DNA of 20,000 bases from an uncultured virus (IMG/VR IMGVR_UViG_3300029305_012101) (taxonomy: Duplodnaviria > Heunggongvirae > Uroviricota > Caudoviricetes), in IMG/VR virus record IMGVR_UViG_3300029305_012101, one strand, 5' to 3'. Position 1 is the stretch's first letter; every line of letters starts with the position of its first letter. The position numbers were made by a program, and so were the translations under genes. Positions 16,034-20,000 of this stretch are shown in pieces. The notes beneath the pieces are model-generated. The model saw nothing but the letters and a program-made list of their open reading frames with translations. It was not told where the DNA came from and searched no databases.

Positions 16034-16185
16034 GGGAGGAGTTGATCTCCCAGCCGCCCGCCTGCCGGGGCGTAGAGTCCGGCAGGGGCCAACCTCCCGG
16101 GCCGACACGGAGAGCGGCCGCCTGACAAGGGCTGGAACGGTTTACGGAGGAGCGATCCTCACGACGATATATGGGAGGAATTGAT
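16034..16185 (+). ncRNA. Candidate structured 5' leader RNA
   Basis: Multiple stems (16061-68/16079-86; 16100-04/16115-19; enclosing 16050-55/16130-35; GAGGA-GCGA-TCCTC GNRA hairpin 16147-60) between promoter and RBS; no family recognised. Confidence 0.45.
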
Positions 16186-16186
16186 T

Positions 16187-17323
16187 ATGACTAACAGTAT
16201 CAAGTTTTTCTGGAACGGCATTCGTGTCAACGGTGAAAAGAGCCTGATCAAGGTGAGCTACAGCCTGGACAACCACCGGGATCACGCTGAGTGCGTGACC
16301 ATCTACGCCGATGGCTACGGCAGCCGGCTGCCCCGGGACGTCTTCGAGGTCCACAATGAGACCGACCTCTACACCGACTACTTCGAAAACGACAGAGCGG
16401 TTCTGACTCCCGCCCATCCCCTTTACAAGTACGCCCGGTATGCTGCGGTGAAGGCCAAGATCCACGACCTGAAGGGCTACATCAAGTACAAAACGTATTA
16501 TATGGAGAAAAATCCTCAGATGGCCGCCAGATACAATTATGCTGACGAGATCAACCGCAGCATGAAGGAGCTGGCTGAGCTGGAAGCCATCAAAAATCCC
16601 GGCCATCCCACTGCCGAGGATCTGGCTGAGATCGCCCGGGTCCGCATGGAGGCTGAGAACGCCCGGATTGCTGCCGAGCATGAGGCTGAGCTGAAGGCCC
16701 GCGAGGAGCGCCAGCGGAAGCAGAATGAGGGCCGCCGCTTCATCGAGAAGGTTGCCCAGGAGCACCCGATCTGCGAGGGTGAGCCCGTCGTGACCATCAA
16801 CTGGAGCGAGCATCCCGCCTTCTACAGCTGGGAGGATGGCGAACTGAAGCTGTCTGTGGCCGCTGCTGAGATCATCCTGACCCACTTTGACAAGGAAGTC
16901 CACGCGGATGGGGACCGCGGCTACGACAAGACCTCTTTCACCATCGAGTTTGTGAACGAGGACGGCGAGCAGGACACCTACGAGGGGCGCTATGATCTGG
17001 GCGACAACGATGGCGGCATGATCGAGCACATCCGCGCCTGGGGCCGTTTCCTCCTTGAAAAAGGCAGCTACGGCAACGGCAAGCCCACCGAGGACGACAT
17101 CGAGACCGGCCGGGCGATCATCCGTTTCGCCGACTTCCTGGCCCGTCACGCCGATGTGGACTCCATGAGCGACGAGGATCTGATGGTGGAGGTGCTGAAG
17201 ATCAGCCCGAACGACATCACGAGGAGACCTCTGGCTGAGTTTTACATCACGGTTCTGTCCCGCCGGGACATCCGGCTGGCCAGGGAGGCATACAGAATGT
17301 GGAAGAAGGAGGCGCTGGCATGA
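16187..17323 (+). CDS. Multidomain accessory protein with LPD25-like (large polyvalent protein-associated) domain
   Basis: ATG 16187 after GGGAGG; PVVTINWSEHP...GYDKTSFTIEF...TYEGRYDLGDNDGGMIEHIR resembles LPD25; central coiled coil; N-terminal domain unknown. Confidence 0.65.
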   Translation: MTNSIKFFWNGIRVNGEKSLIKVSYSLDNHRDHAECVTIYADGYGSRLPRDVFEVHNETDLYTDYFENDRAVLTPAHPLYKYARYAAVKAKIHDLKGYIKYKTYYMEKNPQMAARYNYADEINRSMKELAELEAIKNPGHPTAEDLAEIARVRMEAENARIAAEHEAELKAREERQRKQNEGRRFIEKVAQEHPICEGEPVVTINWSEHPAFYSWEDGELKLSVAAAEIILTHFDKEVHADGDRGYDKTSFTIEFVNEDGEQDTYEGRYDLGDNDGGMIEHIRAWGRFLLEKGSYGNGKPTEDDIETGRAIIRFADFLARHADVDSMSDEDLMVEVLKISPNDITRRPLAEFYITVLSRRDIRLAREAYRMWKKEALA

Positions 17324-17739
17324 AGATCTACAAGAAAGCGGAATGGGAGCGGGAGCAGTACAAGGGACGATGGGAGCCTTCTCCCTTCCTCCTGGACCGT
17401 GTAGAGGCGGGGGAAGTCCCCGCCGGCTACATCGGCCGCCGGAACGTCATGGTGGGCGGAGAGCACGGCGCGACGCTGCTGACTGAGGGAGTCCACTTCC
17501 TGGTGGAGGGTGAGTACGACCAGCTCCCCCACCTGGAAAAGGCCAACGCCATGGAGGGCGCCTGCTACAGTTTCGCCGGCGGCTACATCCAGGTGACGAA
17601 GCTGTGGCGCCTGAGCGAGGAAGAGGCGAAGAGAGAGGATCTGTACTATCTGGATCGGGTCAGCTTTATGCAGTACGCCAAGTGGGGCACCATTCCCGGC
17701 GGCTGCGCCCTGGTTGGCAGCGATGTCCGGGAAGGTTGA
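17320..17739 (+). CDS. Hypothetical protein (139 aa)
   Basis: AAGGAGG RBS and ATGA overlap with the upstream stop; coding-like codon usage. Confidence 0.7.
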   Translation: MKIYKKAEWEREQYKGRWEPSPFLLDRVEAGEVPAGYIGRRNVMVGGEHGATLLTEGVHFLVEGEYDQLPHLEKANAMEGACYSFAGGYIQVTKLWRLSEEEAKREDLYYLDRVSFMQYAKWGTIPGGCALVGSDVREG

Positions 17740-17765
17740 GAAACTACAAAACAGGAGGAATTGCC

Positions 17766-18395
17766 ATGAATGCTGAGACAATGCTGAAAAAGATTCACCA
17801 GATCGCTGATCTGTACCATCCTGAGATCGCAGAAACACCTGAATTTCAGGATCTGGCCCAAAATTTGCGCGAGGAGATCGCGCTGGCCGAGCAGAAGAAG
17901 ACCGGGAAGGCGGATCGCTTCAAGGCAGCCCTCCGCCTCTCCAAGTGGGTCAATCGGGAGTTCCGGGCCACCCGCCCGGCCATGGCCGGCGCATACACCG
18001 ACGCCCATGGCGCCCAGTGGATCTTCCACTCCTACATCGGCGTCCGCTATGACAAGCCCTATGACGGCCTGGTGGAGGCCGAGGAGGGTATGCGGCCCGC
18101 CAATGCGGAGCAGATCATGTCCACCTATGACAGCCTCCGTCCGGTGAGTTTGCCGGATGTGGGAGTGTTGAAAACCAAGCTGAAGCTGGACAAGGCCCAG
18201 GGCGATGTGGATGATCGCGGCCGGAGCTACACCAAACTGGACGGCGTCTACTTCGACACCGATCTGCTGATCAAGCTGATGGAGTCCGTGGAGCCCACAG
18301 AGGCCTACTTCTCCAGCAAGGGGGATCACCCGATGCTGGTGGCCATGGGTGAAGGATCCCGCGGCGTGGTTTGCCCGATCCGGGTGAATGGGTAA
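17766..18395 (+). CDS. Hypothetical protein with DNA polymerase III beta-clamp-like motifs (209 aa)
   Basis: ATG 17766 after AGGAGG (ORF-track start 17604 is too early); TRPAMAGAY, YFDTDLLIKLMESV and terminal VVCPIRV echo DnaN motifs. Confidence 0.55.
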   Translation: MNAETMLKKIHQIADLYHPEIAETPEFQDLAQNLREEIALAEQKKTGKADRFKAALRLSKWVNREFRATRPAMAGAYTDAHGAQWIFHSYIGVRYDKPYDGLVEAEEGMRPANAEQIMSTYDSLRPVSLPDVGVLKTKLKLDKAQGDVDDRGRSYTKLDGVYFDTDLLIKLMESVEPTEAYFSSKGDHPMLVAMGEGSRGVVCPIRVNG

Positions 18396-18404
18396 GGAGG
18401 AAGA

Positions 18405-19154
18405 ATGGCGAAAAGAGTGCAAGAAACAGCCCGCCCGTTTACGAAGAAGATCCTGTCTCTGACCGGGCGGTTCCCGATCTGGGAGATCTGGTCCGACTTC
18501 ATCTATATGACGGCCGTGGCCATTTCCAACGCCGTGGATCCGTCCCACTTCGAGGTCAGGGAGAAGGAATACCTGAAGATCATCGGGAAATACAATGAGA
18601 AGGAGCGCATGGTATTTCCTGAGTTGCTGGGAGAGCTGGTGATGGCCCTGGAGAAGAACCAGGAGCAGGACTTCCTGGGCAGCGTGTACATGGAGCTGGA
18701 GCTGGGAAACCACTGGATCGGCCAGTTCTTCACGCCCTACAGCGTCTGTCAGCTGATGGCTGATGTCACAAGCGAGGACGCAGCCGAGCAGATCCGGGAG
18801 AAGGGCTTCATCACCATCAACGACTGCGCCTGCGGAGCCGGTGCCACGCTGATCGCCGGCATCCACAGCATCCGCAGGATCCTGGAGAAGGAGGGCCTGA
18901 ACTGGCAGGATCACCTGCTGGTGACGGCCCAGGATCTGGACATGGTGACGGGTCTGATGTGCTACATCCAGATGTCCCTCCAGGGGGCCGCCGGATATGT
19001 TAAGATCGGGAATACAATAACGGATCCCATGAATTCAGGGGACAGCCTGGAGAACTACTGGTTTACCCCGGTGTACTTTTCTCAGACCTGGGCGCTGCGG
19101 CGCCTGTTCTATGGTGCCAGCGCTGAGAAAAACAACCTCCGCCAGCCGGCTTAA
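18405..19154 (+). CDS. Short N6-adenine DNA methyltransferase-like protein (HsdM-like SAM-binding half)
   Basis: DFLGSVYMEL, GQFFTPYSVCQLMA, INDCACGAGATLIA (motif I), AQDLD, GNTI; no NPPY/F motif; AAGGAGG RBS. Confidence 0.75.
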   Translation: MAKRVQETARPFTKKILSLTGRFPIWEIWSDFIYMTAVAISNAVDPSHFEVREKEYLKIIGKYNEKERMVFPELLGELVMALEKNQEQDFLGSVYMELELGNHWIGQFFTPYSVCQLMADVTSEDAAEQIREKGFITINDCACGAGATLIAGIHSIRRILEKEGLNWQDHLLVTAQDLDMVTGLMCYIQMSLQGAAGYVKIGNTITDPMNSGDSLENYWFTPVYFSQTWALRRLFYGASAEKNNLRQPA

Positions 19155-19164
19155 ATACGAAAAT

Positions 19165-19193
19165 GCCTCTGCCGATCACGGCAGGGGCTTTTT
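19165..19193 (+). terminator. Intrinsic terminator of accessory operon
   Basis: GCCTCTGCCG-ATCA-CGGCAGGGGC-TTTTT just after the MTase-like stop. Confidence 0.85.
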
Positions 19194-19295: not shown

Positions 19296-19328
19296 AAATA
19301 ATAAGGGGGAGCATTTTCGCTCCCCCTC
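19296..19328 (-). terminator. Intrinsic terminator for the small minus-strand gene
   Basis: AGGGGGAGC-ATTTTC-GCTCCCCCT stem followed on the minus strand by TATTATTT; lies just downstream of the 19336 stop. Confidence 0.7.
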
Positions 19329-19335
19329 TTCTTGA

Positions 19336-19494
19336 CTATTGGTTTAATCTTTCATAAAATTCTTCTTTGGAGATCATCCCCAGGCAGTACATTTCAACGA
19401 TCAGATCGATGTAGACTGTCTTTCTCTCCAGGTACTCCTCCTCAGTAATCTCACCATCCAAGTACATCCTCTCAATACGTCCGACTGTCATCAT
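19336..19494 (-). CDS. 52-aa double SHOCT-like protein (absent from ORF track)
   Basis: MMTVGRIERMYLDGEITEEEYLERKTVYIDLIVEMYCLGMISKEEFYERLNQ*; RBS AAGGAG upstream and a terminator downstream. Confidence 0.75.
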   Translation of the reverse strand: MMTVGRIERMYLDGEITEEEYLERKTVYIDLIVEMYCLGMISKEEFYERLNQ

Positions 19495-19534
19495 GGTATC
19501 GCTCCTTCCGTTGATTTGTGGGGCCGCGCCGGTA

Positions 19535-19576
19535 TGGAGATCTTAGTGATGTGTGTGAGCTGACCTACTGCCTCCA
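19535..19576. other. Putative prophage attachment junction (attR)
   Basis: M32 homology starts at the GAG (Glu) codon 19557; imperfect inverted repeat TGGAG-N4-TAG...CTA-N4-CTCCA centred on 19555/19556. Confidence 0.6.
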
Positions 19577-20000
19577 CGTCATGGTGCGCTATGAGATCGA
19601 AAAGCAGCTCATCGGCGGCACGCTGGAGGTGAAGGACGTTCCCGCGGAGTGGAACCGGCTGTACAAGGAGTATCTGGGCGTGGATGTGCCCGACGACAAG
19701 CACGGCTGCCTGCAGGACAGCCACTGGTCCGGCGGCTCCTTCGGCTACTTCCCCTCCTACGCGCTGGGCAGCGCCTATGCCGCCCAGATGCTGCGGAACA
19801 TGGAGGAAGAGGTGGACGTGTGGAACGACGCCGGCAGAGGCGATCTGACCAACATCTCCTCCTGGCTGTGGGTGAAGGTCCACCGCCACGGCGGCCTGAT
19901 GGAGCCTGCCGATGTGGTGAAAAATGCCTGCGGCGAGTTCGATCCCACGGTCTACACCGACTATCTGGAGTGGAAGTACCGCAAGCTGTACGATCTGTAA
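19557..20000 (+). pseudogene. 3' fragment of M32 (Taq-type) carboxypeptidase gene, interrupted by the prophage
   Basis: ELTYCLHVMVRYEIEK...W...YKEYLG...GCLQDSHWSGGSFGYFPSYALG..YAAQ are M32 motifs; expected upstream IR.EAD and HEXXH are missing, in-frame TGA at 19512; stop TAA at 19998-20000. Confidence 0.88.

What the first reader, a model, noticed from the sequence alone, without database searches (positions are those of the whole stretch)
19336..19494. Hidden 52-aa double SHOCT-like gene beside the att site: candidate recombination directionality factor
Seen: two copies of MY..G.I(T/S).EE(Y/F).ER, own RBS and terminator, start codon only ~62 bp inside the junction and pointing into the prophage, so its promoter overlaps or crosses att. 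Established: a similar Y..G.I..EEY motif occurs in SHOCT domains and in the coiled coil of large serine recombinases; SPbeta encodes its small RDF SprB at the end opposite its integrase. Inference: this peptide may mimic or bind the integrase coiled coil and control excision, with expression changing between integrated and excised states.
Basis: partly seen in the sequence, partly recalled or inferred. Interest (0 to 1): 0.7.

Follow-up and report, generated by a model that had tools for sequence, protein, structure and literature searches.

The report
Att-coupled SHOCT miniprotein, probably not RDF
A real, conserved 52-residue gene sits right beside the integration site of serine-integrase gut phages, but it is optional and stays unchanged when the integrase is swapped, so it is likely an accessory modulator made only from the circular phage DNA rather than the excision switch, for which a different early gene is the likelier candidate.

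Summary
The ORF 19336-19494 (-) has an RBS, a terminator and two SHOCT-like repeats. It starts 62 bp inside a junction that splits a host M32 carboxypeptidase gene at 19557. It belongs to a conserved family (303 clusters, purifying selection). In 39 of 53 loci a large serine recombinase (LSR) lies upstream across attP, and no record holds a tyrosine integrase.

The RDF reading is weakened. LSRs are the baseline of these phages (37 of 50 control records), while the peptide is in 3 of 50 (22 of 69 counting known carriers). An identical peptide sits beside LSRs only 33% alike. The gene points inward, so no prophage operon can feed it. The phage's own record holds a better RDF candidate after cro (G000:C1:789-938): by eye it resembles four validated RDF sets, and it co-varies with the LSR (rho 0.80 against 0.22).

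Best reading (0.38): an optional integrase modulator resembling the coiled-coil tip, co-transcribed with the integrase only across attP. A hitchhiking accessory gene is nearly as likely (0.35); the RDF itself 0.12. The cognate integrase is missing from the record, and no complex prediction was available.

The parts
19336..19494 (-). 52-aa acidic three-helix miniprotein with two SHOCT-like repeats
19502..19507 (-). ribosome-binding site AAGGAG, 7 nt before the ATG
   Evidence: sequence
19303..19328 (-). terminator-like hairpin closing the gene
   Evidence: hairpin plus T-run behind 20 of 40 distinct homologue ends by a strict script
19531..19556 (.). phage arm of the att junction (probable integrase half-site)
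   Evidence: best in-register matches are the arms of two other M32-inserted proviruses, 16/26 and 15/26 (uncorrected shuffle p 0.013 and 0.023)
19557..19558 (+). probable crossover dinucleotide GA (TC on the integrase strand)
   Evidence: TC is also the commonest attP centre in the homologous loci
19557..20000 (+). 3' part of the split host M32 carboxypeptidase gene
   Evidence: PF02074 E 4.5e-56; 5' part absent from the record
18405..19154 (+). convergent phage N6-methylase-like gene, own terminator-like site at 19165-19188 (context only)

Best explanation
The gene lies between the att site and a terminator, so it is likely co-transcribed with the serine integrase only while the phage DNA is circular and cut off by integration, and its tandem helical hairpins are predicted to act as a loose mimic of the integrase coiled-coil tip that modulates recombination rather than triggering excision. 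Shown: the position, the terminator, the optional presence, the pairing with five LSR clusters, and a modest tip resemblance. Inferred: read-through across attP; binding to the integrase; and the effect, most plausibly holding the reaction toward integration early in infection while the early-operon RDF is also present. Excision itself is likely driven by the post-cro gene G000:C1:789-938.
For: A full LSR lies upstream on the same strand in 39 of 53 loci, with a gap of 84-160 nt in 35 of 39 and an imperfect inverted repeat in the spacer. Four further loci found independently show the same layout. The position is kept in this 65-kb record as well as in roughly 40-kb phages. In several peptide-less relatives a terminator-like hairpin follows attP directly, so the gene occupies the slot between attP and that hairpin. 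The best profile match on the LSR C-terminal half falls at the coiled-coil tip (Prob 14, E 0.0019; tip at residues 114-123 in the model). The repeat profile's best site is the tip in 5 of 21 LSRs, and beyond shuffles in 3. Among other ORFs of the loci, three of the four best weak hits are LSR tips (E 0.035-0.1); no clear second SHOCT protein was found.
Against: The tip of the commonest neighbouring LSR cluster (28 of 39) and of the M32-targeting proxy L091 does not match the repeat. Peptide identity barely follows LSR identity (rho 0.22 on 10 representatives; 0.33, p 0.015 on 23). In L042 a divergent gene separates it from att by about 600 bp; in L023, L033 and L035 it starts 354-384 nt after the LSR stop. 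It also fuses with unrelated neighbouring small ORFs. There are no transcription data, and the cognate integrase was not recovered.
Confidence: 0.38

Rival explanations
1. An ordinary accessory (moron-type) SHOCT gene that hitchhikes with the int-attP cassette and uses a promoter in or beside the att arm. It would bind some host or phage protein unrelated to recombination.
For: Optional: 3 of 50 control records, 1 of 19 near-complete ones; 0 of 5 records with LSRs related to L091. Identical copy beside LSRs 33% alike. Fusions with at least three different small accessory domains. Separated from att in L042. Exchange of int-attP cassettes between phages is proposed in PMC6957869 (passages). Hexamers close to TATAAT lie upstream in several loci, without a control.
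Against: No partner identified; no clear second SHOCT protein in the 53 loci. Spacing to the LSR stop is much tighter than for the first co-directional accessory genes in peptide-less phages (about 180-250 nt).
Confidence: 0.35
2. It is the RDF (or a second RDF) and switches the integrase to excision.
For: The int-attP-small gene layout matches SPbeta and phi3T (PMC6957869). Size and acidity are RDF-like. Int30 has two RDFs. One LSR-peptide read-through protein exists (P0124).
Against: Absent beside LSRs 72% identical to peptide-paired ones. Unchanged in the L011/L014 swap while the post-cro gene changed. It faces inward, whereas sprB is fed by the upstream yosX transcript. All-helical, whereas most predicted RDFs add a strand to DBD2. 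A better candidate exists in the same record. P0124 is a single-contig case lacking the LSR's last strand.
Confidence: 0.12
3. It binds and titrates the early-operon RDF or another lysogeny regulator rather than the integrase, favouring lysogeny until integration shuts it off.
For: Same positional logic as the best explanation; independent of LSR tip sequence.
Against: The post-cro genes also differ strongly where the peptide is identical. No direct evidence.
Confidence: 0.1

Closest known systems
SprA/SprB of SPbeta and the phi3T int-attP-rdf unit (PMC6957869, PMC4191935, 10.1101/2025.01.03.631226; passages read)
   Same: Small gene at the prophage end opposite the LSR, separated from it only by attP after excision.
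   Different: sprB is co-transcribed from inside the prophage and is proposed to travel with its integrase as a cassette. This gene points inward, is optional, and stayed put in an integrase swap.
Validated RDFs of Nm60, Bt24, Dn29 and Int30 (PMC12286644; parts 1, 3, 4, 5 of 7 and parts of the supplement read)
   Same: By eye their LSRs carry the same YLRKS-type motif set as the LSRs here.
   Different: By eye their RDFs resemble the post-cro gene G000:C1:789-938, not this peptide. No RDF row contained the six peptide motifs searched.
SHOCT domain PF09851 (PMC3581485; passages read)
   Same: Helix-turn-helix repeat; the first copy passes the Pfam cut-off.
   Different: SHOCT is usually a single C-terminal domain of larger proteins and its function is unresolved. 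Here it is a stand-alone tandem pair tied to att sites.

Membership tests
SHOCT domain proteins (PF09851) | Profile score above the gathering cut-off | tested here: met
   27.6 against 27 bits, first repeat
SHOCT domain proteins (PF09851) | Usually C-terminal on a larger protein | tested here: not met
   303 short clusters against 16 longer hits; the longer search scored only 7994 candidates at a stricter E-value
Serine-integrase RDFs | Encoded by an element that uses an LSR | tested here: inconclusive
   Own record lacks the integrase end. Homologue records 41 of 49 LSR, 0 of 49 tyrosine. An M32-inserted provirus has an LSR.
Serine-integrase RDFs | Cognate: needed by, and varying with, its integrase | tested here: not met
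Serine-integrase RDFs | Expressible from the integrated prophage on induction | tested here: inconclusive
   Faces inward; no sigma-70 promoter found on its strand; no RNA data
Serine-integrase RDFs | Binds the DBD2/coiled-coil junction | not tested
Serine-integrase RDFs | Activates attL x attR and inhibits attP x attB | not testable with these tools
   Needs a recombination assay

The most novel reading that the evidence does not exclude
A third, promiscuous component of serine-integrase control: a stand-alone double mimic of the coiled-coil tip, made only while attP is intact and switched off by integration itself. It would tune synapsis across integrases as little as 15-35% alike, working at a different site from all known RDFs.
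Probability: 0.2. Interest if true: 0.75.

Novelty: new variant of a known kind. Interest (0 to 1): 0.42.

Why it matters
If the peptide acts on the integrase, it would be a cross-clade handle on directionality that is separate from RDFs, useful for integrase tools, and it would give a first function for a SHOCT protein. If it does not, the comparison still yields a large set of testable RDF candidates in the post-cro slot of gut-phage LSRs, and shows that att adjacency alone misleads RDF calls.

Tried and rejected
Cognate integrase: absent from the record and from the two nearest copies, which are cut at the same places. The att-arm pattern gave only the same phage and a chance hit in a glutamate-synthase-like gene.

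The deep representative search and the VIA fold searches never ran.

Fold and structure searches: Foldseek gave no match at E<=0.001 in the PDB (serine integrase chains appear at E 3.8-6.1 and are not counted) or in BFVD. PDB sequences, PHROGs, NCBIfam and the Atlas gave nothing informative.

One search's tip scan had the two repeats out of register by one residue. It was discarded and redone.

The peptide was found in 2 of 401 order-level and 0 of 401 family-level genomes.

Dropped before counts: L002 and L055-L058 (partial, weak matches) and L064 (duplicate of L052). One search parsed no LSR in 7 of 33 loci.

P0124 was rejected as Rosetta-stone evidence. The RDF-motif regex (1 match in the record, 0 in 30 shuffles) was written with the candidate in view, so it is circular.

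Full report
Setting. The window is the last 20 kb of a 65,484-bp provirus record that begins at a CI-like repressor. The record has no PF07508 match, so the integrase end is missing. The window ends in the 3' part of a host M32 carboxypeptidase gene. Intact homologues agree with the window from 19557 onward (44-56 of 60 bases) and not before it (16-23 of 60; 10 loci). The genus search gives the same start (67 of 78 genomes matched), as do loose ends in 3 of 4 runs. Two other proviruses are inserted at the same codon. L091 has the 5' part of the gene, then an arm, then the stop of an LSR pointing at the junction. L093 has the 3' part, with no peptide beside it. Their arms are the best in-register matches to this window's arm (modest uncorrected p values). 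The missing integrase is therefore probably an LSR (inference).

The gene is real. The ORF, RBS, terminator and repeat are as described. A profile search found 303 clusters (alignment A2 of 117 sequences). pN<pS in 593 of 595 pairs, with median pN/pS 0.16 in 70 unsaturated pairs; 6 of 7 variants in an independent run are silent. The model has helices 3-12, 18-37 and 43-51 and no significant structural match.

Genomic context. I examined 53 loci: 49 viral, including a copy of this phage, and 4 genomic (five weak partial hits dropped). PF07508 is in 41 of 49 records (29 of 30 near-complete) and PF00589 in 0 of 49. In 39 of 53 loci a full LSR lies upstream on the same strand, 84-160 nt away in 35, usually across an imperfect inverted repeat. 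Of the other 14, five are cut within the LSR tail or att, three have no upstream DNA, and six are integrated junctions. L046 and L047 share the att arm of circular L048, and the records of L046 and L042 carry the LSR at the far end. Four more loci show the same layout. Many of these records are near-duplicates: 23 LSR clusters at 95% identity.

Controls against the RDF reading. (1) Of 80 loci chosen by a tail gene I searched 50. I left out 19 already known carriers, the L093 record and 10 short records. An LSR was in 37 of 50, a tyrosine integrase in 0 of 50 and the peptide in 3 of 50; adding the known carriers gives 22 of 69. The LSR link is thus the lineage baseline and the peptide is optional. 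LSRs about 72% identical to peptide-paired ones have no peptide after attP. (2) L011 and L014 carry an identical peptide beside LSRs 33% alike, and their DNA identity resumes exactly at the peptide's ATG. Neighbouring LSRs fall into five clusters at 40% identity, down to 15%. (3) sprB is transcribed from inside SPbeta (PMC4191935, passages), whereas this gene faces inward.

A better RDF candidate. G000:C1:789-938 (+), 49 aa, follows cro. By eye it resembles the validated RDFs of Nm60, Bt24, Dn29 and Int30 (supplement rows; validation text); I ran no alignment against those sequences. Its family is in all 23 loci of the largest LSR cluster (L029 included) with at least 2.9 kb upstream, in six peptide-less loci (L095-L100), and in 0 of 8 loci of other clusters with enough DNA; 8 loci were too short. 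Several of the 8 negative loci have a different small gene in the same slot, and that slot changed between L011 and L014. Its identity follows the LSR (rho 0.80) better than the peptide's does (0.22). That comparison rests on 10 representatives, without a significance test or correction for shared descent.

Coiled-coil resemblance. The best profile match lies at the tip but is weak. It is beyond shuffles in 3 of 21 LSRs and absent in the commonest neighbours and in L091. Known RDFs act at the DBD2-CC junction, while tips mediate synapsis and handcuffing (10.1101/2025.01.03.631226, passages).

Mechanism. The gene sits between attP and a terminator-like hairpin (strictly 20 of 40 distinct ends), downstream of the repressor-integrase genes. 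I infer read-through only across attP, so the peptide would appear during establishment and be cut off by integration. A loose tip mimic tuning recombination is the only reading with any positive molecular hint (0.38). A hitchhiking accessory gene explains the optional presence, the swap, the fusions and L042 about as well (0.35). RDF: 0.12. No binding prediction or expression data were obtained.

Literature. 'SHOCT' with 'recombination directionality factor' or with 'serine recombinase' gave 0 papers. 'SHOCT, prophage, integrase' gave 4, seen as listings only. Six peptide motifs were absent from the RDF column of PMC12286644's table (parts 7, 10 and 11 seen only through searches). Passages only were read for PMC6957869, PMC10747680, PMC5025042, PMC11795197 and PMC3581485. 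The library lacks most subscription papers, and preprint supplements were closed. Earlier scan notes had nothing on this gene.

Verdict. A real, apparently undescribed att-coupled tandem-SHOCT family, probably not the RDF. Interest 0.42.

Noticed in passing
G000:C1:789-938 (+), outside the window (L059:789-938): 49-aa post-cro gene resembling by eye the validated Nm60/Bt24/Dn29/Int30 RDFs; its family tracks the LSR cluster. Likely the true RDF, with dozens of homologues in the fetched loci.
   Followed up: partly
L042:3383-4645 and L215: A prophage inserted in dinB appears to carry its own 5' dinB replacement, read in frame through the att arm (17 extra residues) into the host 3' part, which would restore the gene.
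   Followed up: partly
L018:1-417, L091:830-870, window 19557: Related LSRs split a Mn-catalase (cotJC-like, name recalled) gene and M32 genes, apparently at similar Glu-Leu codon pairs with a GA crossover.
   Followed up: partly
L011:9177-9905: The largest LSR cluster carries an insertion of about 30 residues with two predicted strands just before the final strand of DBD2, absent from the other clusters.
   Followed up: no
L097:4650-4799; P0133-P0135: A different 50-aa helical ORF occupies the slot after attP in L097; a similar domain occurs fused in front of the peptide in three proteins.
   Followed up: partly
window 16181-19154: Accessory operon (LPD25 protein, two unknown ORFs, N6-methylase-like gene) between the endolysin and the att junction, convergent with the peptide gene.
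   Followed up: no
P0124: Single-contig 601-aa read-through of an LSR across an attP-like spacer into the peptide, lacking the LSR's last strand.
   Followed up: partly
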